Below are positions 3,927-31,171 of a stretch of DNA of 64,000 nucleotides, in pieces; positions within the stretch are counted from its first letter, which is position 1; every line of letters starts with the position of its first letter. The notes beneath the pieces were generated by a model. It did not search any database, was not told the DNA's origin, and worked only from the letters and a program-made list of their open reading frames with translations. Origin of the DNA: Escherichia virus TH58; sequence record MT446423.1; one strand, given 5' to 3'. A program made the position numbers and the translations under genes.

Positions 3927-4190
3927 ATGAAAACTTTCAACGAATTCATCTCAGAATCGTCTGGTGTGAAAATTAACAAAGCGGTTAATCAGGTTATTGC
4001 TGATATTCTTAATTTGTATAACATTGACTTAACTCCGCATATCACGCTTGGTAACAAACGAAACTTTTTTATATTTGACACATCCGAACTTGATGAAAAC
4101 CAGTTCAATAACATTCAACGTTTTGCGAATGATAAAGGTCTTCGACACGAGCCTGGCGGCTATAAAAAATACGCAATATATTTGAAATAA
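3927..4190 (+). CDS. Internal-protein-like ORF with capsid targeting sequence (IPI position)
   Basis: Starts MKTFNEFISE, matching the T4 IP capsid targeting signature MKTYQEFIAE; sits at the ipI position between 57B and the tRNAs. Confidence 0.55.
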   Translation: MKTFNEFISESSGVKINKAVNQVIADILNLYNIDLTPHITLGNKRNFFIFDTSELDENQFNNIQRFANDKGLRHEPGGYKKYAIYLK

Positions 4191-4192
4191 AG

Positions 4193-4222
4193 GTATACAA
4201 ACCTATAGGGATATGTTATAGT
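4193..4222 (+). promoter_or_regulatory. Early promoter variant (GTATAC -35, TATAGT -10) with flanking inverted repeat
   Basis: Motif ...GGGATATGTTATAGTAGTCCTATC, shared with several other intergenic sites. Confidence 0.45.
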
Positions 4223-4259
4223 AGTCCTATCAAAACAAATGAGTAAATGGAGAAATAAA

Positions 4260-5695: not shown

Positions 5696-5769
5696 GGCCC
5701 TGTAGCTCAATGGTTAGCAGCAGTCCCCTCATAAGGGAAAGGTTACCAGTTCGAATCTGGTCTGGGCCA
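5696..5769 (+). tRNA. tRNA with CAU anticodon (Met or Ile-type)
   Basis: Hand-folded cloverleaf: acceptor GGCCCTG/CTGGGCC (one T-T mismatch), T-arm ACCAG-TTCGAATC-TGGT, anticodon loop CTCATAA; no encoded CCA. Confidence 0.65.
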
Positions 5770-5775
5770 TATATT

Positions 5776-5852
<77 letters not shown>

Positions 5853-5870: not shown

Positions 5871-6215
5871 ATGAAAGGCAATATTTATTTGGTAGTTCAT
5901 GATTTAACGTTTTATTTTAACGAACAGGATACAGTTATTTCCGACCGGTTGATTAATTCGTTATATCAACACGCTGATTACGTTTATTTTAAAAATGAAT
6001 TCGGACATTGGAAGTTTCTTAAAAACCGTTCCGGGTTAACTAGTTTTGAATACTTTGACCGTAAAGACCTTTTAAACGAAATCCCATTGCAACATCGGTT
6101 CCAGAAACGCGAATCATTATATTATTGCCGTCATATACCAAACGCAGAATGTGCTTATGAAGCGATTAATCTATGGCGTCGGCGTCGAGAACAAATTGAT
6201 GATATGCCAAAATAA
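5871..6215 (+). CDS. Hypothetical protein
   Basis: ATG 5871 with GAGGA RBS; the upstream part of track ORF 5823..6215 overlaps tRNA-Arg and is discounted. Confidence 0.5.
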   Translation: MKGNIYLVVHDLTFYFNEQDTVISDRLINSLYQHADYVYFKNEFGHWKFLKNRSGLTSFEYFDRKDLLNEIPLQHRFQKRESLYYCRHIPNAECAYEAINLWRRRREQIDDMPK

Positions 6216-6522
6216 GAAACCGGGTCGCTACCGGTAAGTCGTCGGACTGATGTTCCCTGGAGTATAGTTCCTCCCACAGTTTTACTGTGTTCTGGTTCTT
6301 TACTATCACAGCTGAAACGGCGCACAGAATTATCGATTCGAGGAAATATCTTTGCCGTAAGCCGAGTAGCGTTTTTGACGGAACGTTCGGATATGGTCGA
6401 GATATGGCCTTTTAAAAATATTGAGTAGCGTCAACTGCTTAATAACCGGGTTCGAATCCCGGCGTTTCGTACAAACACTTGCCTTAGCAGGTGGAACCCC
6501 GACAAGGTTGCCGCAAGGCATA
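6216..6522 (+). ncRNA. Candidate structured small RNA region (positional analog of T4 tRNA-associated stable RNAs)
   Basis: About 300 nt with no credible + strand ORF, GC-richer than surroundings, tRNA-like T-arm CCGGG-TTCGAAT-CCCGG at 6446-6462, ends at a strong terminator. Confidence 0.3.
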
Positions 6523-6554
6523 GCCCCTTCCGAAAGGTTGGGGCTTTTTTTTTT
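6523..6554 (+). terminator. Rho-independent terminator
   Basis: GCCCCTTCCGAAAGGTTGGGGC hairpin followed by T10. Confidence 0.8.
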
Positions 6555-6596
6555 GGCATAATAAATAGATAAGTTAATTAACTTAGGAAAAGCAAC

Positions 6597-7061
6597 ATGA
6601 AATCATACGCTGAATTTTTGACTGAACAATCTAGTTCAGATGTAAAAGCCGCTGCGATTGCAGCAATTCGAGCAGGTAAATATTCTTACAAAGACGCCTC
6701 TGATGAAGAACGTTTCCGTTTTATTAGAGATTTTAAAGCCGAAGGTTTTACTAATGCTAATACTGTTAGCCGAGTTTTTAAAAGCCTAGCTGCATCAGGT
6801 GAATTGTTCCAGAAAGCTACAGGTAAAGCACCTGCGCCAAAAGCGGACCCTAAAGCCGCTCAAGAAAAAAATATCGCCAAAGGAATTATTTCTAAGTATG
6901 AAGCAATTCTTAAAGAGCTTTTAGTAATCAAATCAGAAGGCCAGAAACTGGCACGAGCACATAGCTTCAAAGATAATCCTCACGCTCATAGCCTTGAGTA
7001 TGTTGAAGATATCCAAAAACTTATTAAAGACCGTATCTGGTCTGCTAAACAAATTAAATAA
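6597..7061 (+). CDS. Internal-protein-like ORF with capsid targeting sequence
   Basis: Starts MKSYAEFLTE (CTS-like); 154 aa; terminator directly downstream. Confidence 0.5.
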   Translation: MKSYAEFLTEQSSSDVKAAAIAAIRAGKYSYKDASDEERFRFIRDFKAEGFTNANTVSRVFKSLAASGELFQKATGKAPAPKADPKAAQEKNIAKGIISKYEAILKELLVIKSEGQKLARAHSFKDNPHAHSLEYVEDIQKLIKDRIWSAKQIK

Positions 7062-7067
7062 TAGAAT

Positions 7068-7095
7068 GCCCCTTCCTTACGGTTGGGGCTTTTTG
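7068..7095 (+). terminator. Rho-independent terminator
   Basis: GCCCCTTCCTTACGGTTGGGGC hairpin plus T5. Confidence 0.7.
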
Positions 7096-7184
7096 GTATC
7101 TAGGGCATAAAAATATTTCATAAAGATGTTTACTTCTTCTAAGGACATGATACTATAGACTTATCAACCACATAGGAAAATGTT

Positions 7185-10603: not shown

Positions 10604-10801
10604 ATGTCTCGTGAATTAGATTGTGCTGTACGTACGGCAGTAGCTGCTCTGGAAAACCTGTTCCAAATTGCAACAGAAGAACGCGAAGAAGTTACATTAT
10701 GGATTGAAGATAACGCAGGTCTGAATCTCCAGAACGCAATCTCGGTATCAAATAATAGTATTACTGTTCAAGGCTGGGTATCATCTAGTTATTCTTGCTA
10801 A
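10604..10801 (+). CDS. Small acidic protein, paralog 3 of 3 (C-terminal QGWVSSSYSC)
   Basis: AAGGAAA RBS; same C-terminal signature. Confidence 0.55.
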   Translation: MSRELDCAVRTAVAALENLFQIATEEREEVTLWIEDNAGLNLQNAISVSNNSITVQGWVSSSYSC

Positions 10802-10805
10802 AACA

Positions 10806-10835
10806 GTTTACAACAAGATAGGGCTATGTTATAGT
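10806..10835 (+). promoter_or_regulatory. Early promoter GTTTAC / TATAGT with inverted repeat GGACTAT...TAGTCC
   Basis: GTTTAC 10806-10811, 18-nt spacer, TATAGT. Confidence 0.5.
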
Positions 10836-10863
10836 AGTCCTATCAAATTAAATGGAGTCCACA

Positions 10864-12088: not shown

Positions 12089-12100
12089 TTTCGCAAAGCT

Positions 12101-12130
12101 GTTTACAACATGATAGGACTATGTTATAGT
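12101..12130 (+). promoter_or_regulatory. Early promoter GTTTAC / TATAGT with inverted repeat
   Basis: GTTTACAACATGATAGGACTATGTTATAGTAGTCCTAT. Confidence 0.5.
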
Positions 12131-12158
12131 AGTCCTATTAAAACATGAGGAGAATATT

Positions 12159-16153: not shown

Positions 16154-16250
16154 CCAACCTGTAATAAGGTCGAGCCCAAGTGCGGTAATGGGTAAATACA
16201 GAAATGGACAATTCATGTGCCATGGAATGGCCCAAACCTAGAGAGAACAA
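16154..16250 (+). repeat. Copy A of a roughly 100 bp intergenic direct repeat
   Basis: Blocks CCAACCTGTAATAAGGTCGAGC..TGCGGTAATGGGT and ATGTGCCAYGGAATGGCCCAAACCT shared with 16651-16750. Confidence 0.6.
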
Positions 16251-16251
16251 A

Positions 16252-16581
16252 ATGAAAACATATCAAGAGTTTATCACTGAAGTTACATTATCTGCGGAAC
16301 AGAAAGCTGCTATCGAAGAAGCTAAAAATCCCAAAGTAACATATAAAGTAAATAGTAAAGGCGTTTTTGATGACTTGGTTCAAGACCCTGAATTGAAAAA
16401 AGCTCTTTCTAAAACTAATGCGTACTTTGCTCCTAAATTTAACACAGCCGGCGTACTTATTGGATTGGATGTATTCAACTCTAAAGGTGTTCTATCTAGT
16501 GCCTTTGGTTATGCCGCTAACAAAATTACCAAAGCCGCATGGGAATCCAATACCAAACAAGCTCAAAAGCCTAGAGTATAA
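16252..16581 (+). CDS. Internal-protein-like ORF with capsid targeting sequence (ipIII position)
   Basis: Starts MKTYQEFITEV; 109 aa. Confidence 0.55.
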   Translation: MKTYQEFITEVTLSAEQKAAIEEAKNPKVTYKVNSKGVFDDLVQDPELKKALSKTNAYFAPKFNTAGVLIGLDVFNSKGVLSSAFGYAANKITKAAWESNTKQAQKPRV

Positions 16582-16650
16582 TTCTTGCCTAATAAAGGGA
16601 AACGCAACCTCTCCTTATGAACGTCGAGTCCTCTAAGTGATGTACCTTTT

Positions 16651-16750
16651 CCAACCTGTAATAAGGTCGAGCGCAATGCGGTAATGGGTTTACATAGCGA
16701 GTCGAAGGACCTAACATGTGCCACGGAATGGCCCAAACCTTAAGAGAAAT
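16651..16750 (+). repeat. Copy B of the roughly 100 bp intergenic direct repeat
   Basis: See copy A; ends immediately upstream of the ATG at 16754. Confidence 0.6.
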
Positions 16751-20928: not shown

Positions 20929-21122
20929 TTACTCGCGAACAAAAGAACGAAATATTATTTTTAGTTGGTGAAATTATTAGTTTAGAAAAGGATTTGTCTT
21001 TTGAATTATCTTCTGATTATGGAGATGCCGAAACATATTACGAATTAGTAAAATCTATCGATAAAGCTGAAAATGATTTAGAAACATATTTAGAAAATTT
21101 AACTAAGGACTCTTATGGCTAG
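20925..21122 (+). CDS. Small acidic protein (tandem paralog B)
   Basis: 65 aa; REQK..L...E motif shared with 20737..20928. Confidence 0.45.
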   Translation: MITREQKNEILFLVGEIISLEKDLSFELSSDYGDAETYYELVKSIDKAENDLETYLENLTKDSYG

Positions 21123-21696
21123 TTTAATTTTTACATATGCCGCTATGAATGCTGGTAAGTCTGCTTCATTACTTACTGCCGCACATAACTATAAAGAACG
21201 TGGCATGGGTGTATTAGTTCTTAAACCGGCTATTGATACTCGCGATTCAAAAGGTGAAATAGTCTCTCGTATTGGTATTCGTCAAGACGCCAATATAATT
21301 ACAAAAGACATGGATATCTTTGAATTCTATAAATGGGCTGCAGCACAAAAGGATATTCATTGTGTATTTGTTGACGAAGCTCAATTCTTAACTACTGAAA
21401 AGGTGTATCAACTTAGTCGTATTGTTGACGTATACAATGTGCCGGTAATGGCATATGGACTACGAACAGATTTTAAAGGTAATCTATTTGAAGGTTCTCA
21501 AGCATTAATGGCTATTGCCGATAAGCTTGTTGAACTTAAAGGTGTCTGTCATTGTGGTAAAAAGGCCACAATGGTAGCTAGAGTCACGGAAGACGGACTT
21601 CCAATTACAGATGGCAGTCAAATTGAAATTGGTGATACTGATAGATATGTGTCATTATGCCGGAAGCATTGGAATGATTTGACAGGGTTGTTATAA
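21115..21696 (+). CDS. tk: Thymidine kinase
   Basis: P-loop AMNAGKS, zinc-ribbon CHCGKKA...CRKH; 193 aa. Confidence 0.9.
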   Translation: MASLIFTYAAMNAGKSASLLTAAHNYKERGMGVLVLKPAIDTRDSKGEIVSRIGIRQDANIITKDMDIFEFYKWAAAQKDIHCVFVDEAQFLTTEKVYQLSRIVDVYNVPVMAYGLRTDFKGNLFEGSQALMAIADKLVELKGVCHCGKKATMVARVTEDGLPITDGSQIEIGDTDRYVSLCRKHWNDLTGLL

Positions 21697-21723
21697 ATAC
21701 TAATATCTAACCAAGAGGTATAT

Positions 21724-21936
21724 ATGCAGCAATTAAACGAAAGACAACTTCGTAATCTTACTGTAACCCAATTGGATGAAATCCGAAGAGAATTAGGACA
21801 TTCTATTTCTCATTTAAACGAGGATATCCGTCAAACTGGTTCTAAAGCTGATTATACACGCAAGCGCAAGCTGGAAAAATACCTCACAGATGTTAAGGCC
21901 GTCCAAAGGCGAAAAATAAATACTGGCCAAAATTAA
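21724..21936 (+). CDS. Hypothetical basic protein (rI.-1 position)
   Basis: 70 aa; AAGAGG RBS. Confidence 0.5.
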
Positions 21937-21948
21937 CAGGAGGCCTAT

Positions 21949-22252
21949 ATGGCCTTAAGAGCGATAGCTGTCATGGCGATGCTGGGGTTTTTTTGCAGCA
22001 ACAACTCCTATCGTTGGTACTGCACATATTGACCCATATTTTGATAACTTTATGGAATCAGGGATTAAAAACGTATATACTTTGTTTGAAATTCAAAATG
22101 TCGAGAATTCTGAAAAATTCTATAAGTATATGGCAAAGCATTACAAAAATAGCCCCTGTGATGATGCATTTGAATGTCATGAACAAGGCATAAAAACTGC
22201 CAGACAATTTGCCGAGTTCATGAAAATAAAATTAGAGCCTACATCTATCTAA
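21949..22252 (+). pseudogene. rI: rI lysis-inhibition regulator (antiholin), reading frame broken at a T7 tract
   Basis: AGGAGG-ATG at 21949 encodes signal-anchor MALRAIAVMAMLGFF, then stops at 22030; frame +1 from 21995 continues AATTPIVGTAHIDPYFDNFMESGIK...KIKLEPTSI, which matches T4 RI; frames join if the T run 21988-21994 had 6 rather than 7 T. Confidence 0.6.
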
Positions 22253-22259
22253 TTTACCT

Positions 22260-22287
22260 GCCCCTTCCGAAAGGTTGGGGCTTTTTG
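22260..22287 (+). terminator. Rho-independent terminator
   Basis: GCCCCTTCCGAAAGGTTGGGGC plus T5. Confidence 0.75.
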
Positions 22288-22295
22288 TATAAATA
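22288..22295 (+). promoter_or_regulatory. Late promoter TATAAATA
   Basis: Exact TATAAATA 25 nt upstream of the ATG at 22320. Confidence 0.5.
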
Positions 22296-22319
22296 TCCTT
22301 GTAAACTAAGAGAGGATAT

Positions 22320-22877
22320 ATGAAATTTTTAAAATATGTAAGTTGGGTTGTTCTTGTTCCTATAGATTGGATCGCAGCGATTTTAGCAATTATTCTAGCG
22401 CCATTTGTAGTTCCATTCCATAGTGAAAAAACCGGTAAACTACCTTATGGCTTTAACTGGATGATGACTTACGATAATCCTATCGATGGTGACCGCGGCC
22501 ATGTTGAACGTTGGTCTAAAATACGTAAAATTCCTGTTATAGGTAAATATGCTCAACGCGTAGCTTGGCTATGGCGCAACAAAGCATATAATTTTTCGTA
22601 TCATGTTTTAGGTCGCGAAGCTTCATCAGAATGGCATTATAAAGGCAACGCCGAAACTAAATCTGGATCTCCTGATCCAGCACATCATGGATATCTTTTA
22701 GTTTGGAACGAGTCGGCATGGGGATTATTCGCTGCTATACCTTATCTTAAGGTTGGTGGTATTACATTTTATCTGCGTGTTTACTGTGGTTGGAAACTTA
22801 AGAGTCTTTTGAGTCGTCCTATTCCACGCGCAATGCTTTCATTCCATATCAACCCTTTACGATATTACAAAAACTAA
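22320..22877 (+). CDS. Membrane protein, likely late-expressed (rI.1 position)
   Basis: N-terminal TM helices; 185 aa; flanked by two terminators and preceded by a late promoter. Confidence 0.55.
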   Translation: MKFLKYVSWVVLVPIDWIAAILAIILAPFVVPFHSEKTGKLPYGFNWMMTYDNPIDGDRGHVERWSKIRKIPVIGKYAQRVAWLWRNKAYNFSYHVLGREASSEWHYKGNAETKSGSPDPAHHGYLLVWNESAWGLFAAIPYLKVGGITFYLRVYCGWKLKSLLSRPIPRAMLSFHINPLRYYKN

Positions 22878-22882
22878 TCAAA

Positions 22883-22910
22883 GCCCCTTCCGAAAGGTTG
22901 GGGCTTTTTG
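22883..22910 (+). terminator. Rho-independent terminator
   Basis: Same hairpin GCCCCTTCCGAAAGGTTGGGGC plus T5. Confidence 0.75.
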
Positions 22911-22920
22911 GCATCTATCA

Positions 22921-22950
22921 GTTTACTTCTCCTCAGGTTGTGTTATAGTA
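22921..22950 (+). promoter_or_regulatory. Early promoter GTTTAC / TATAGT
   Basis: GTTTAC 22921-22926, 18-nt spacer, TATAGT 22945-22950. Confidence 0.5.
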
Positions 22951-22976: not shown

Positions 22977-23156
22977 ATGACACGTAAAGAAAAAATTTCT
23001 AAGTTAATGTTTTTGATTGAAGAGTATGCTAATGCGGTGTCTGATTGGGAAAATGCTCATGGTTGTGAAGATGGAGACATCGACATTAACAGAGCTATGA
23101 AAAAGATGGCTGAAGCCCACACCGAATTGCAAATGTATGTTAACGAGATTATGTGA
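22977..23156 (+). CDS. Small hypothetical protein
   Basis: ATG 22977 after AGAGGAG; 59 aa. Confidence 0.45.
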   Translation: MTRKEKISKLMFLIEEYANAVSDWENAHGCEDGDIDINRAMKKMAEAHTELQMYVNEIM

Positions 23157-26004: not shown

Positions 26005-26051
26005 TAAGGGCCTTCGGGCCCTTTAGGGGGTCAAAATATTTTTAAAAAGTA

Positions 26052-26080
26052 GTGTACATGCTTTTAGGATATGTTATTAT
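26052..26080 (+). promoter_or_regulatory. Early promoter variant (GTGTAC, TATTAT) with AGGTCTAT-type hairpin
   Basis: GTGTAC 26052-26057, TATTAT 26075-26080. Confidence 0.4.
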
Positions 26081-26118
26081 AGACCTATCGAAACGAAATG
26101 AGTAAATTGGAGAATAAA

Positions 26119-27237: not shown

Positions 27238-27525
27238 ATGGATTTTATGCAAAAAATTAAAGCCGCAGTCGAACTGTATGCTCATCGTATGGTTAGTTCT
27301 ACGATGCAATATAGCGAGGATGTTCGCCAGGACTCTTCCTTGAAAGGAAAAACTAAAGCCTTAATTACCTTAGATCGTTTGCAAAAGAATGCCATAGAGA
27401 TGCTCCAGTACGACAAGGATGCATATAAGAAAGAACAGGAAGAGAAACTTAAATCTGAAAAATTACAGAAAATTCCGAAATCGGTTTGGTTCAGTGGAAA
27501 AAATACCGAAAAAAGTTTCTTTTAG
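27238..27525 (+). CDS. Hypothetical basic protein
   Basis: AGAGGA RBS; 95 aa. Confidence 0.5.
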   Translation: MDFMQKIKAAVELYAHRMVSSTMQYSEDVRQDSSLKGKTKALITLDRLQKNAIEMLQYDKDAYKKEQEEKLKSEKLQKIPKSVWFSGKNTEKSFF

Positions 27526-27527
27526 TT

Positions 27528-27556
27528 GTTTACAAGGTCTATGGTTATGTTATTAT
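27528..27556 (+). promoter_or_regulatory. Early promoter GTTTAC / TATTAT with hairpin AGGTCTAT...ATAGACCT
   Basis: GTTTAC 27528-27533, 17-nt spacer, TATTAT 27551-27556. Confidence 0.5.
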
Positions 27557-27583
27557 AGACCTATCAACTACTGGAGGTAAAAC

Positions 27584-28174: not shown

Positions 28175-29170
28175 ATGAGCATTACATCTGATGCGGTAAA
28201 ACATGAAATTAACGGTTTATGTGCTTCACAGATTAAAGTGTGGTTTAAAGACCATAATGATCGCAGAGCACTTAATTATGAGCAAATTGCTATCCAAGTT
28301 CATCAATTACTGACTAGTAAATTTGATTTTCATATGCCATCTGAAATCTATACTAATCTACCGCGAGCGCTTATTAAAGCGTGTAAAGGTTACGGAAAAT
28401 CAATGGCCGATGGAATCTTCAGCGCGCTGAATAAACTTAACGTTCTATCGATGATTAACTCTAACAACATCCTGCGTAATCTAGGACGTACTGATTTGTT
28501 CGGTCGTGAACAGTGTAAAATGCCTTTGAAATGGATTGTTGCTCATCTTAACGAGAACCAAACACGTTTTCTGGCCGTATCAGCACGCTTACAAATGGGC
28601 CTAGATCGTCAGATGAACTTTAAAACTCATCCACGTTATTCAGGTTCAACAGACTTTTATAAATGTGAGCTTCAAAAGGTTGCAGGTAAAACTGTCTTAG
28701 TAGTTCGTGTAACGTTTGAAGGACGACGTCAAGGATATTTTGACCTAATCGGCTCCGGTCTTAAACATTGTGGATTTATTGTCGAAGTTGATATCAAGCG
28801 AGACGGCATTGGATACCGTATTGGATATGTTTGTACTCTTAAAGAAGAGATTTCAGGACCAGCACCAGGACTAAAAGACGTTAGATATAAAGACGAGCTC
28901 GTTGAAGAAATAAAAGAAGTTGAATATGATATCAACCAAGAAGATGCTCTTAAAGACCTTATTGATGAACTAAACCAAGACGTTATTCCGGTTCAGAAAT
29001 TTGAATCAAAACATGCTGAGCAAATCAAATACTTTGAAGCTTTGATTAACGAACTTAATGTAACTATTCAACAGACTGACGACGAAATCTCACGATTAGC
29101 AGGCTTAAACGGTAAAAATAAAACAGAACGAGCTAATCTTATTCAAGTAGTAAAACTTCTTAAGGAATGA
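28175..29170 (+). CDS. Hypothetical protein
   Basis: 331 aa; GAGGAAA RBS. Confidence 0.55.
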   Translation: MSITSDAVKHEINGLCASQIKVWFKDHNDRRALNYEQIAIQVHQLLTSKFDFHMPSEIYTNLPRALIKACKGYGKSMADGIFSALNKLNVLSMINSNNILRNLGRTDLFGREQCKMPLKWIVAHLNENQTRFLAVSARLQMGLDRQMNFKTHPRYSGSTDFYKCELQKVAGKTVLVVRVTFEGRRQGYFDLIGSGLKHCGFIVEVDIKRDGIGYRIGYVCTLKEEISGPAPGLKDVRYKDELVEEIKEVEYDINQEDALKDLIDELNQDVIPVQKFESKHAEQIKYFEALINELNVTIQQTDDEISRLAGLNGKNKTERANLIQVVKLLKE

Positions 29171-29199
29171 TGTACAACCAAGGATGGTTGGAGTATAAT
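29171..29199 (+). promoter_or_regulatory. Early promoter cassette ACAACCAAGGATGGTTGGAGTATAAT (hairpin CCAACC/GGTTGG)
   Basis: Near-identical cassette repeated at 30163 and in variant form at 7690. Confidence 0.5.
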
Positions 29200-29225
29200 A
29201 AATTTTTCAACATGAGGAATATAAA

Positions 29226-30158
29226 ATGGCTTCTATTACACGTAGAGAACTTATCAAAGAATTTACCTCGAACGCATATACCCCAGGTCCTAATCCTATC
29301 CGTATGCCTGTAAAGACTCCTGAAGAGATTGAGGAAGTCTGTTCATATTATGGGATTACTTCTCGTAAGTTTACTCAATTTGAATGCGTTACTAACACAC
29401 CCGTTAAAGAGTTCATTAAAAATGGTGAGTTCAGCCGTTTATTAGCCAAACAGAAACTTCGTAATTTTTGTATCGGCGGCTACGGACAATATTTTGCTAA
29501 ACAGTTCAGAAATAACCTTAACAATCTGATGGCCATTGCTTCTCGTATTCGTCCTCAAGCAATTAACATGAAACATTTGAAATATACTTACGATAAGTTA
29601 GAAATCATGGTTATCAGTGAGAATGAGTTCACTCTTACGTATAAACCTAAGAATGATAACGTTGCTCGTGTATTCCACCAAGCGTTGGAAGTTTTAGGTG
29701 ATAATATCCACCAGATTAAAGCAATTTATTCTCGTGAGCTTAATATTATCGACCCTATCAAGAATAAGGGCCATATCGCTATCCAGGCTCGTGTATCTGT
29801 TGGTAAAAAGGTTCCTGCTCCATGGTGGCACAAAGACTCTGAATACTATCAAAATCTTAAAAAGGAAAATGCAACGTTCGAAGCGTCAATTATTGTTGCC
29901 CCAACTATCGGTAAGATTAATGCAGCTTCAGCACAACCTGTTATGTTTAATGGCACGCCGTCGACTAAACTGGAAATCTCTAATGGTCTTCTTCCTGCCG
30001 AAGATTACTATTATAATCAAATCAAAGCCACTGTGGACCAACTGTCTGTTGAACTTGACAAAGCACAAGCTAAACTTCGTGATGCTCAACAAGTAGTTAC
30101 CAAGCTCCAGTTGCAGTACTCTAAACTTTTTACCGCAATGAATGCGTTAAAATCATAA
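29226..30158 (+). CDS. Hypothetical protein with C-terminal coiled coil
   Basis: 310 aa; GAGGAA RBS. Confidence 0.55.
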   Translation: MASITRRELIKEFTSNAYTPGPNPIRMPVKTPEEIEEVCSYYGITSRKFTQFECVTNTPVKEFIKNGEFSRLLAKQKLRNFCIGGYGQYFAKQFRNNLNNLMAIASRIRPQAINMKHLKYTYDKLEIMVISENEFTLTYKPKNDNVARVFHQALEVLGDNIHQIKAIYSRELNIIDPIKNKGHIAIQARVSVGKKVPAPWWHKDSEYYQNLKKENATFEASIIVAPTIGKINAASAQPVMFNGTPSTKLEISNGLLPAEDYYYNQIKATVDQLSVELDKAQAKLRDAQQVVTKLQLQYSKLFTAMNALKS

Positions 30159-30162
30159 ATCA

Positions 30163-30192
30163 GTTTACAACCAAGGATGGTTGGAGTATAAT
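30163..30192 (+). promoter_or_regulatory. Early promoter cassette (GTTTAC...TATAAT), repeat of 29171 cassette
   Basis: GTTTACAACCAAGGATGGTTGGAGTATAAT. Confidence 0.55.
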
Positions 30193-30220
30193 CTTTCTAT
30201 CTTAACGAGAGGAAAATATT

Positions 30221-31171
30221 ATGACACGTTCACATTACATTGATTATTTTGCAGGTCTTATCGCTAACGTTCATGCCCAACGTGCTTCTGGTTCATTAGG
30301 ATTTGATGTTCCACACCGAGTTGTAGTAAGTGGTATTCTTCGCGATTTTTGTACATACACAGGCCAAGAAAATCATATCTGTAAAGATACTCAGAATGCG
30401 TATTCTCATTCATTAGGGACACTGCTTCAATGGTTCAAACGTTCTCGTTTATTATCTTCTACTGTAGCTCGCGATAACATTAAAAACTTTATGAAGCCTA
30501 GCTTTATTAAATCTGTGACATCTAAAACCGATTTGGTTGAATTCACTATTGTTAATGATGTTAAAAAGACTCATTTGGCTGATTGGTTATCTACCATTCC
30601 TGAAACTAAATTCGCTGATAAATTTGCTTGTGAATTCAATAACCAAGTGAATATGCTTTTTAAACATTCTCGTAAATTATTCACTGGCGGTGATGGCCGT
30701 ACAAATAAAGTTCATGTTAAAGATTGGGTTACTGCAGTATTCAAACCAACTGGTAATGGTAACGCATCATTGTCAATTGATATCCAGGTTCCTTATTACT
30801 ACTCACGTAATCTCGGTACCATGAAAGCCGAAGAAATTAATAAGCACAACAAAACCGTTCGTTCGCTGTCTTATAAACTTCGTATGATGTTACAGACTAT
30901 GGATGTTGTTGAAATGTTCAGCGAAACCGAAGATAACGGTTCAATGTTATTCAGTTCTCGTATTCAAATTAAGCTGAAGAACCCTAACGAGTATAAGCCT
31001 AAGCCTATTAAAGAGCCTAAAGCAGAAAAAGTTGATAACTTAAGAGAAGAACGCGAATATCTCAAATCTCGTCTGAAAGAAGTCGAAGCCCAGATTGCAG
31101 AACAAACTAAATCATTAAAAGCTCTGAATGCAAAAGCTGATGGTTTACGAAATGCCATTGAGGTGTTATAA
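30221..31171 (+). CDS. Hypothetical protein with C-terminal coiled coil
   Basis: 316 aa; GAGAGGAAA RBS. Confidence 0.55.
   Translation: MTRSHYIDYFAGLIANVHAQRASGSLGFDVPHRVVVSGILRDFCTYTGQENHICKDTQNAYSHSLGTLLQWFKRSRLLSSTVARDNIKNFMKPSFIKSVTSKTDLVEFTIVNDVKKTHLADWLSTIPETKFADKFACEFNNQVNMLFKHSRKLFTGGDGRTNKVHVKDWVTAVFKPTGNGNASLSIDIQVPYYYSRNLGTMKAEEINKHNKTVRSLSYKLRMMLQTMDVVEMFSETEDNGSMLFSSRIQIKLKNPNEYKPKPIKEPKAEKVDNLREEREYLKSRLKEVEAQIAEQTKSLKALNAKADGLRNAIEVL

What the first reader, a model, noticed from the sequence alone, without database searches (positions are those of the whole stretch)
22260..22910. Late-promoter membrane protein gene insulated by two identical terminators next to rI
The 185-aa membrane protein gene has an exact TATAAATA late promoter and is bracketed by two copies of the same terminator hairpin (a third copy is at 6523 and a variant at 7068). 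This is an autonomous late transcription unit inside an otherwise early region, adjacent to the lysis-inhibition gene, suggesting a lysis-timing or envelope function.
Basis: seen in the sequence. Interest (0 to 1): 0.4.

Follow-up and report, generated by a model that had tools for sequence, protein, structure and literature searches.

The report
Mobile late-gene cassette beside rI
A 623-bp gene cassette (terminator hairpin, late promoter, membrane-protein gene of unknown function) has been recombined into the terminator hairpin behind the lysis-inhibition gene rI of a T4-like phage, duplicating the hairpin; this is a clear example of an already described way these phages shuffle accessory genes, so the position next to rI says nothing about function.

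Summary
Two exact 28-nt hairpin+T-tract copies (22260-22287, 22883-22910) bracket a 185-aa ORF (22320-22877). An exact TATAAATA lies 32 nt upstream of its ATG. Related copies sit at 6523 and 7068.

The window is a Mosigvirus (RB69-like T-even phage). About 130 of ~154 related genomes, including RB69, have one copy of the same hairpin at this site and no gene. So the filled site equals the empty site plus a 623-bp insert with the hairpin duplicated.

In Dhakavirus the same gene (74% nt identity) sits in the internal-protein/tRNA locus. There it is again flanked by two identical hairpins carrying a compensatory G/C swap, and the ATAAATA core is conserved. This matches PeSL-type modular shuffling (Arbiol 2010, Comeau 2014), except that a late promoter replaces the early one on the left element.

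The protein is a full-length DUF7338/phrog_2143 member with one N-terminal TM helix. The AF2 model is confident, but no PDB fold matches and no function is known. Adjacency to rI is an accident of insertion. In several unrelated phages, however, homologs lie between tail-fibre and endolysin genes, which is a weak envelope/lysis hint. The window's rI is itself frameshifted.

Interest is low to moderate.

The parts
21692..21699 (+). Exact TATAAATA late-promoter motif upstream of rI.1-rI. It shows that the neighbouring unit is also late-transcribable.
   Evidence: 32 nt upstream of the SD+ATG of ORF 21724
21949..22252 (+). rI (antiholin) homolog, frameshifted. The T7 run at 21988-21994 compares with T6 in six relatives. 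The ATG frame stops after 28 codons and the rest of RI is in another frame.
   Evidence: the C-terminal part matches phrog_1246 'lysis inhibition' at positions 35-96 only
22260..22287 (+). Hairpin copy A: stem-loop 22260-22281, then T5 and G. It is the rI terminator and the left direct repeat of the cassette.
   Evidence: (-15.1 kcal/mol)
22288..22295 (+). TATAAATA, a T4-type late promoter -10 element. The inferred transcript start is near 22301.
   Evidence: ATAAATA is invariant in 10 of 10 cassettes
22320..22877 (+). 185-aa DUF7338 / phrog_2143 gene. It has an N-terminal TM helix and a basic, Trp/Tyr-rich alpha/beta domain.
   Evidence: (E 7e-62, 208.7 bits against a cut-off of 27)
22883..22910 (+). 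Hairpin copy B, identical to A. It is the cassette terminator and the right direct repeat. Together with the promoter below it forms a T-even-type PeSL.
   Evidence: (-17.9 kcal/mol)
22922..22949 (+). T4-type early promoter (TTTACT, 16 nt, TATAGT with upstream TG) that drives the next gene.
   Evidence: identical in empty-site relatives; member of the repeated early-promoter families D1/D2
22977..23156 (+). 59-aa mobD.2a-like gene (DUF7438). In empty-site genomes it is the gene immediately downstream of rI.
6523..7095 (+). Sister cassette in the IP/tRNA locus. It comprises hairpin (6523-6550), AATAAATA (6560-6567), an internal-protein-type gene (6597-7061, leader MKSYAEFLTEQ) and a hairpin variant (7068-7095), followed by an early promoter.
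   Evidence: D3 and D4

Best explanation
The feature is a 623-bp mobile gene cassette of the T-even stem-loop/promoter kind.

**How the cassette got there**
- Its unit is [G+C hairpin with T-tract]-[late promoter TATAAATA]-[SD]-[DUF7338 gene].
- It lies in the single terminator hairpin that normally separates rI from the next early gene, so the hairpin is now present twice as a 28-bp direct repeat.
- The same hairpin family punctuates the internal-protein (IP)/tRNA locus. There it heads late-promoter cassettes, and when followed by an early promoter it closes them.
- T4-type recombination needs only short homologies. The shared hairpin therefore acts as portable homology through which cassettes are inserted, excised (as a mini-circle in the Arbiol model) or swapped between loci and between phages.
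- Status: the architecture, the empty/filled polymorphism and the relocation are shown. The recombination pathway and its direction (gain here versus loss elsewhere) are inferred.

**How the unit is transcribed (inferred from motifs and their conservation)**
- Hairpin A terminates rI transcripts.
- gp55-dependent late transcription starts near 22301.
- Hairpin B terminates this transcript.
- The early promoter at 22922-22949 restarts transcription for the downstream early genes.

**What the product is**
- It is a single-pass membrane protein of the large phage family DUF7338, with no recognisable fold relative in the PDB.
- My committed but low-confidence guess: a non-essential accessory factor, made late and anchored in the inner membrane, that binds or modifies a conserved anionic envelope component at the end of infection.
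- Rough split of probabilities: lysis-related about 0.25, exclusion or envelope modification about 0.3, something else about 0.45.
- It is not a partner of RI by virtue of its position.
For: **Repeat and structure**
- Exact 28-nt repeat spaced 623 bp, with none expected by chance. The hairpins are stable.

**Empty versus filled site**
- RB69 and phiC120 have one copy of the identical hairpin. Both junctions match the window...taatttactaGCCCCTTCCGAAAGGTTGGGGCTTTTTGGCATCTATCAGTTTACTT.
- About 154 Mosigvirus records hold the site and about 22 are filled.
- Filled and empty states occur with both right-flank haplotypes (GGCATCTATCAG and TGCATTTAGCAG) within 12 bp of the hairpin. All four combinations exist, so exchange at the hairpin has recurred.

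**Relocation and shuffling**
- Dhakavirus MX01, L006 and L007 carry the gene (74% nt identity) in the IP/tRNA locus.
- There it lies between two identical hairpins, GGCCC...GGGCC, a compensatory change that preserves pairing, and TATAAATA is conserved.
- Cassette order permutes: DUF7338 then IP in L006/L007, IP then DUF7338 in L005/L040.

**Promoters**
- Across the loci, 13 hairpins are followed by ATAAATA and 12 by an early promoter.
- The ATAAATA core is invariant in 10 of 10 cassettes.

**Window context**
- The window's own IP locus holds the same hairpin around an IP-type gene.

**Literature**
- PeSLs flank indel genes, terminate transcription, and form mini-circles (PMC2839356).
- T-even-type PeSLs have the consensus TTTACW-N17-TAYWAT, and PmSL variants exist (PMC4122927).
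- GCCC/GGGC inverted repeats lie at T4 deletion endpoints.

**Protein**
- Pfam DUF7338 over the full length.
- 731 clusters at 50% identity, all stand-alone proteins of 160-200 aa.
- AF2 pLDDT 93.9.
- The gene is autonomous in other phage groups, as a lone opposite-strand gene.
Against: - There are no transcript data. Promoter and terminator activity are inferred from motifs.
- TATAAATA is not enriched in the window overall.
- Some homologous copies lack a late promoter (L005/L040 and the RB16/Klebsiella group). Autonomy is therefore not a fixed property of the gene.
- The direction of the event is unresolved. Insertion here, or repeated deletion between the two hairpins in other lineages, gives the same pattern.
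- Cassette composition does not differ from the genome (GC 0.387 against 0.368), so there is no sign of recent foreign origin.
- Arbiol et al. described the T-even IP-associated elements as having weaker, AT-rich stems. This hairpin is G+C-rich, so it is not the same element they referred to.
- Protein function is a guess. Topology is ambiguous: the N-flank is more positive in 62% of members, yet the domain has a mean net charge of +7.
Confidence: 0.75

Rival explanations
1. First reader's reading. The gene is a functional partner of rI, a lysis-timing or lysis-inhibition component. It is placed next to rI because the two act together, and it is insulated so that it is made only late.
For: - It is adjacent to rI, has a late promoter, and has one N-terminal TM helix like RI and holin T.
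- In unrelated phages, homologs lie directly upstream of lysis genes. In L052 and L053 the next gene is a SAR GH24 endolysin. In L056, L057 and L078 the order is homolog, small TM protein, lysozyme. In L073 the order is homolog, 135-aa protein, GH19 endolysin.
- One database record calls a Felix-O1-like member 'holin'.
Against: - Adjacency to rI is confined to about 22 of 154 Mosigvirus genomes. The other genomes, including RB69, keep rI without it.
- T4 has the unrelated rI.-1 in that slot.
- Homologs in other T-even genera sit in the IP/tRNA locus.
- There is no sequence or fold similarity to any solved structure, including those of holin T and RI to the extent that they are in the libraries searched.
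- In the tail-fibre/lysis contexts the constant neighbour is the upstream tail-fibre gene. In L054 two other genes separate it from the endolysin, and in L072 no lysis gene follows.
- The 'holin' label has no experimental backing in the literature searched.
- rI is frameshifted in this window, so no RI partnership could operate here if the sequence is correct.
Confidence: 0.2
2. It is a moron-type exclusion or envelope-modification gene. The late-made membrane protein alters a conserved envelope component. This would block superinfecting phages or prevent progeny from adsorbing to debris.
For: - It has its own promoter and terminator, and presence is patchy among close relatives.
- It occurs as a lone opposite-strand gene in two unrelated phage groups.
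- It is consistently downstream of tail-fibre genes in other groups.
- The invariant residues are polar, basic and aromatic (D52, H61, R64, W65, WLWRNKAYN, R153, GWK). This suggests a conserved ligand rather than a variable protein target.
- Identity is about 60% between T4-like and Felix-O1-like phages.
Against: - There is no match in PADLOC or NCBIfam, no similarity to Imm, Sp, Cor or Llp was detected, and there are no experimental data.
- Late expression is an odd time for exclusion, because the T4 genes imm and sp are early (from memory).
- Topology is unresolved.
Confidence: 0.3
3. The two hairpins are ordinary, independently evolved terminators, and the identity is coincidental or driven by selection for a good terminator. 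No mobility is involved.
For: Terminator hairpins with stable tetraloops are common in T-even intergenic regions. Other family members have UUCG-loop hairpins upstream.
Against: - Identity is 28 of 28, including the T-tract and the following G, with 0 expected by chance.
- Empty sites hold exactly one copy, and both junctions match.
- The gene travels with the same hairpins and leader to another locus in another genus.
Confidence: 0.03
4. The cassette moved by an enzyme-driven route, such as a homing endonuclease or transposase with target-site duplication, rather than by homologous recombination at the hairpin.
For: T-even genomes carry many free-standing homing endonucleases (the mob and seg genes). 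The T4 counterpart of this region is named after mobD.
Against: - The 623-bp insert contains only the 185-aa ORF, and that ORF has no nuclease or transposase domain.
- The 'duplication' is a pre-existing 28-bp functional hairpin also present at other loci.
- Breakpoints coincide with the hairpin in two genera.
Confidence: 0.05

Closest known systems
PeSL (promoter-early stem-loop) cassettes of T4-type phages, including the PmSL variant (Arbiol et al. 2010, PMC2839356; Comeau et al. 2014, PMC4122927)
   Same: - A repeated intergenic stem-loop acts as terminator next to a promoter.
- It flanks a small accessory gene that is present or absent between close relatives.
- There is one element at the empty site and two at the filled site.
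- The inferred movement is by recombination between the elements.
- Hairpin B plus its promoter fits the T-even PeSL consensus.
   Different: - The left element carries a late promoter (TATAAATA), not an early or middle one.
- Only the 28-bp hairpin is shared by the two flanks, rather than a roughly 100-bp promoter+stem-loop block.
- No mini-circle has been shown.
Polymorphic internal-protein (IP) loci of T-even phages (Repoila et al. 1994, as summarised in PMC2839356)
   Same: - The same hairpin and late-promoter leader head IP-type genes in the window (6523-7095) and in Dhakavirus.
- The DUF7338 gene sits among them in Dhakavirus.
- Cassette order permutes between relatives.
   Different: - The DUF7338 protein has no IP capsid-targeting leader.
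- Here the cassette lies outside the IP loci. Arbiol et al. thought the IP-associated elements might prevent this.
- They also described those elements as AT-rich with weak stems, unlike this G+C stem.
Morons of lambdoid phages (own promoter and terminator, inserted between genes)
   Same: An autonomous transcription unit with patchy distribution, and a membrane-protein product. In two other phage groups it is a lone opposite-strand gene.
   Different: It uses a phage late promoter and is not expressed from a prophage. There is no compositional difference from the host genome of the cassette.
T4 lysis-control proteins RI, RIII and holin T
   Same: It is late-expressed, has a single N-terminal hydrophobic segment plus a domain of about 150 aa (as in holin T), and neighbours rI.
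   Different: - No sequence or fold similarity was found.
- The TM segment is strongly hydrophobic, not SAR-like.
- It is non-essential and patchily distributed.

Membership tests
PeSL (Arbiol 2010 / Comeau 2014) | Intergenic stem-loop able to act as a terminator or attenuator | tested here: met
   The fold is -15 to -18 kcal/mol, z about -3, followed by a T5-T10 tract. A compensatory G/C swap occurs in Dhakavirus copies. Termination itself was not assayed.
PeSL (Arbiol 2010 / Comeau 2014) | Early (sigma-70-like or T4-early) promoter joined to the stem-loop | tested here: not met
   Met for hairpin B (TTTACT-16-TATAGT with TG, 22922-22949) and for the 7068 copy. Not met for hairpin A or the 6523 copy, which are followed by (T/A)ATAAATA instead. 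So the left element works like a PeSL but is not one.
PeSL (Arbiol 2010 / Comeau 2014) | Repeated in the genome and associated with indels between close relatives (one element at the empty site, two at the filled site) | tested here: met
   There are four copies in the window. RB69 and phiC120 hold one identical copy. About 22 of 154 sites are filled.
PeSL (Arbiol 2010 / Comeau 2014) | Formation of excised mini-circles | not testable with these tools
   This needs inverse PCR on infected cells or virions.
T4 late promoter (gp55/gp33-dependent) | TATAAATA at -10, with no -35 element, placed upstream of a late gene | tested here: met
   An exact motif lies 32 nt before the ATG. The ATAAATA core is invariant in 10 of 10 cassettes.
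T4 late promoter (gp55/gp33-dependent) | Late, gp55-dependent transcript start | not testable with these tools
   No transcript data are available.
Pfam DUF7338 (PF24027) / phrog_2143 | Score above the curated gathering threshold over the full length | tested here: met
   208.7 bits against a cut-off of 27, covering residues 1-184 of 185. phrog_2143 E 4e-79.
T-even internal proteins (IP) | N-terminal capsid-targeting leader MKTYQEFIAE-like | tested here: not met
   The DUF7338 protein starts MKFLKYVSW and continues into a TM helix. The leader is present in the sister-cassette ORF 6597 and in four other ORFs (family D3).
Holin / antiholin | Homology or fold similarity to a known holin or antiholin family | tested here: not met
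Holin / antiholin | Encoded next to the endolysin; membrane lesion formation or its inhibition | tested here: inconclusive
   It is next to or near endolysin genes in L052-L059, L073 and L078. It is not so in T-even, Felix-O1-like or five other contexts. Activity is not testable here.
Moron | Own promoter and terminator; present or absent between related phages; atypical composition | tested here: inconclusive
   The first two features are met. Composition is not atypical.

The most novel reading that the evidence does not exclude
DUF7338 could be a previously unrecognised class of phage envelope or lysis effector with a new fold. It is a late-made, membrane-anchored protein that acts on a conserved envelope lipid or glycan. 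It has been recruited repeatedly beside tail-fibre and endolysin genes. It spreads between unrelated phage families (T4-like, Felix-O1-like and others) as a self-contained unit. In T-evens it would ride a 'late-promoter stem-loop' element whose hairpin serves as a portable attachment site, letting IP-locus cassettes escape to other terminators such as the one behind rI.
Probability: 0.2. Interest if true: 0.55.

Novelty: new variant of a known kind. Interest (0 to 1): 0.32.

Why it matters
This locus gives an unusually clean natural example of hairpin-mediated cassette shuffling in T-even phages. The filled site, the empty site and a relocated copy all have nucleotide-exact junctions.

It also extends the PeSL idea in two ways. 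The cassette is headed by a late promoter, and it has exchanged between the internal-protein locus and an unrelated terminator.

Practically, it warns against guilt-by-association annotation in these hyperplastic regions.

Finally, it flags DUF7338 as a sensible target for a deletion and expression study. The family has 731 clusters at 50% identity, a confident model with no known fold relative, and recurrent placement near tail-fibre and lysis genes.

Tried and rejected
**Function searches that gave nothing usable**
- Pfam, PHROGs, NCBIfam and PADLOC give only DUF7338 and phrog_2143.
- The PDB profile search has no significant hit.
- BFVD returns only family members.
- The afdb50 library was unavailable.
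- The deep profile search found no domain fusions.
- Literature searches for DUF7338 and for a Felix-O1 'holin' basis found nothing relevant. Repoila 1994 is not held.

**Hypotheses rejected**
- Homology to T4 rI.-1: rejected.
- Foreign composition of the cassette: rejected.
- Coincidental terminators and transposase or homing-endonuclease insertion: considered and rejected (see rival explanations).

**Left unsettled**
- Topology from the positive-inside rule is inconclusive.
- No model coordinates were available for checking how the TM helix packs against the domain.

Full report
**1. What the window is**

The region is T-even-like. On the + strand it reads tk (21115-21696), an rI.1 homolog (21724-21936), rI (21949-22252), the flagged ORF (22320-22877), and then a string of small mobD.x-like genes. 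Megablast places it in Mosigvirus, the RB69 group, at 97-98% nucleotide identity to phages PHB12, LF82-1 and others.

**2. The observation**

- *Repeats.* The 28-mer GCCCCTTCCGAAAGGTTGGGGCTTTTTG is present exactly at 22260-22287 and 22883-22910. It occurs with one mismatch at 6523-6550 and with three mismatches at 7068-7095. None is expected by chance.
- *Fold.* All copies fold into the same structure: a 5-bp G:C stem, a UU/UU internal loop, two C:G pairs and a tetraloop. Free energy is -15 to -18 kcal/mol and a T-run follows. The generic terminator scan missed them only because of the internal loop.
- *Late promoter.* TATAAATA lies at 22288-22295, immediately after the T-tract. It is 32 nt before the ATG, and a GAGAGGA Shine-Dalgarno sequence lies between them.
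- *Statistics.* The octamer is not over-represented in the window (7 found against 8.3 expected). Four of the seven exact copies sit 32-37 nt upstream of an SD+ATG.

One correction applies. The rI.1-rI unit just upstream also has an exact TATAAATA at 21692. A T4-type early promoter (TTTACT-16-TATAGT with TG, 22922-22949) follows hairpin B. The cassette therefore sits between a late/early rI unit and an early unit, not inside a purely early region.

**3. The duplicated hairpin is an insertion/excision footprint**

Counts:
- About 154 Mosigvirus records contain this site.
- In about 22 of them the two flanks are separated by roughly 620 extra bases (filled).
- In the rest, including RB69 and JS09, the flanks are contiguous.

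Junctions:
- I read eight sites. RB69 and phiC120 have a single copy of exactly the same GAAA-loop hairpin.
- The empty-site sequence is ...ctaatttactaGCCCCTTCCGAAAGGTTGGGGCTTTTTGGCATCTATCAGTTTACTT....
- This equals the window's left junction up to the hairpin and its right junction from the hairpin on.
- So the filled site equals the empty site plus 623 bp, with the 28-bp hairpin+T-tract as a direct repeat.
- Other empty sites (ZQ3, LF82-41, Mizar) carry a TTAT-loop variant of the hairpin.

Recurrent exchange:
- Filled and empty states both occur with each of the two right-flank haplotypes lying within 12 bp of the hairpin (GGCATCTATCAG and TGCATTTAGCAG).
- All four combinations exist, which indicates repeated exchange at the hairpin.

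The slot in T4:
- T4 has an unrelated gene, rI.-1, in this slot.

**4. The cassette moves as a unit**

- *Dhakavirus.* In MX01 the homolog (74% nt, 75% aa identity) lies in the internal-protein/tRNA locus, between a conserved non-coding stretch after the tRNAs and e.8. It is flanked by two identical hairpins, GGCCCTTCCGAAAGGTTGGGCC. This is a compensatory G/C swap relative to the window that keeps the stem paired. The first hairpin is followed by TATAAATA and a homologous leader, and the second by an early promoter.
- *Wider survey.* In 60 IMG/VR loci the hairpin family is followed 13 times by (T/C/A)ATAAATA and 12 times by an early promoter.
- *Permuted order.* L006 and L007 have tandem late cassettes, DUF7338 then an IP gene (MKTYNEFLNES). 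L005 and L040 have the reverse order.
- *Promoter conservation.* The ATAAATA core is invariant in 10 of 10 aligned cassettes from three genera and two unrelated genes.
- *The window's own IP locus.* It has the same architecture around ORF 6597-7061. That ORF's leader, MKSYAEFLTEQ, belongs to a five-member repeat family of IP leaders in the window.

**5. Comparison with what is known**

This matches the PeSL model.
- Stem-loop/promoter modules are repeated in hyperplastic regions.
- They flank genes that differ between close relatives, with one module at the empty site.
- They terminate transcription and recombine to give mini-circles (PMC2839356).
- T-even-type PeSLs have the consensus TTTACW-N17-TAYWAT, and a middle-promoter variant (PmSL) exists (PMC4122927).
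- GCCC/GGGC inverted repeats were noted at T4 deletion endpoints.

Hairpin B plus its promoter is a T-even PeSL. Hairpin A is not, because a late promoter replaces the early one. It works like a PeSL and is best called a late-promoter variant.

Arbiol et al. suggested that the IP-associated elements might confine IP shuffling to the IP loci. Here an IP-locus-type cassette sits behind rI, evidently because the rI terminator is the same hairpin.

**6. The protein**

Family and structure:
- It is a full-length DUF7338/phrog_2143 member.
- It has one strongly hydrophobic N-terminal helix, about residues 7-33, usually containing an acidic residue.
- The remaining 150 aa form a basic, Trp/Tyr-rich domain.
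- Invariant residues include D52, G57, H61, R64, W65, the WLWRNKAYN motif, R153 and G157-W-K.
- The family has 731 clusters at 50% identity, essentially all stand-alone proteins of 160-200 aa.
- The AF2 model is confident (pLDDT 93.9, pTM 0.83).
- It has no significant PDB relative and only family members in BFVD.
- PADLOC and NCBIfam are silent, and no literature was found.
- Topology is unresolved.

Distribution:
- a minority of Mosigvirus;
- Dhakavirus and relatives, about 75% aa identity;
- Karamvirus, 68%;
- RB16 and the Klebsiella T4-likes, 62-65%;
- Felix-O1-like phages, about 60%, among tRNA genes;
- Aeromonas and Vibrio phages, about 32%.

**7. Functional clues from context**

- In L052-L059 and L078 the homolog follows tail-fibre or fibre-assembly genes. 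It precedes a lysis cassette, with 0-2 intervening genes. The cassette comprises a SAR GH24 endolysin and an Rz-like spanin.
- In L073 the order is GpJ-type tail genes, the homolog, a 135-aa protein, then a GH19 endolysin.
- In L072 it ends a tail-fibre operon.
- In L075 and L077 it is a lone gene on the opposite strand to all its neighbours.
- In L079 it lies in a replication region.

The gene is thus an autonomous accessory unit with a modest tendency to sit at the tail-fibre/lysis boundary. This is a weak, independent hint of an envelope or end-of-infection role. It does not support a specific partnership with RI.

**8. Verdict**

"Autonomous late unit" and "membrane protein" hold, but "function implied by rI adjacency" does not.
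- The feature is a PeSL-type mobile cassette with a late-promoter left element, inserted in (or not yet deleted from) the rI terminator.
- Confidence is about 0.75 for the anatomy and origin. It is low for any specific protein function.
- Interest is about 0.3. It is a clean instance and small extension of a described mechanism, carrying a widespread protein of unknown function and unmatched fold.

Noticed in passing
window 21949-22252 (T-run 21988-21994): rI is frameshifted. The run is T7 here, against T6 in six relatives and T5 in phiC120. The ATG frame stops after 28 codons, and only the C-terminal two-thirds of RI is readable in another frame. This is either a genuine rapid-lysis (r) mutant or a homopolymer sequencing error.
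   Followed up: partly
window 29173-29199 and 30166-30192: There is another exact 27-nt direct repeat, TACAACCAAGGATGGTTGGAGTATAAT. Its stem-loop (CCAACC/GGTTGG) lies between a -35 and a TATAAT -10, making it a classical PeSL. The pair brackets a 310-aa ORF (29226-30158), which sits in a row of three ORFs of similar size (28175-31171).
   Followed up: partly
window 3924, 6594, 14829, 15674, 16249: Five copies of the internal-protein leader (MKTYQEF...-type) mark five IP-type genes in two loci. A roughly 500-bp tandem duplication lies at 16154-16748 within the second locus.
   Followed up: no
window 6215-6520; L003 2260-2498: A non-coding stretch after tRNA-Met and tRNA-Arg (5696-5852) is conserved with Dhakavirus MX01 and ends at the 6523 hairpin. 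It has no Rfam match. From memory, it may correspond to the small stable RNAs (rnaC/rnaD) of the T4 tRNA region.
   Followed up: partly
L052-L059, L078: In this clade of roughly 40-60-kb phage contigs, start and stop codons overlap (ATGA) along a late operon. The order is tail-fibre assembly gene, DUF7338-like gene, a one-TM coiled-coil protein, then a SAR endolysin. No canonical multi-TM holin was evident.
   Followed up: partly
window 4175-4234, 7109-7165, 10800-10847, 12095-12142, 26033-26089, 27509-27565: These are families of near-identical T4-type early promoters (GTTTAC...TATAGTAGTCCTATC) repeated through the window. They provide further portable homology in the hyperplastic regions.
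   Followed up: no
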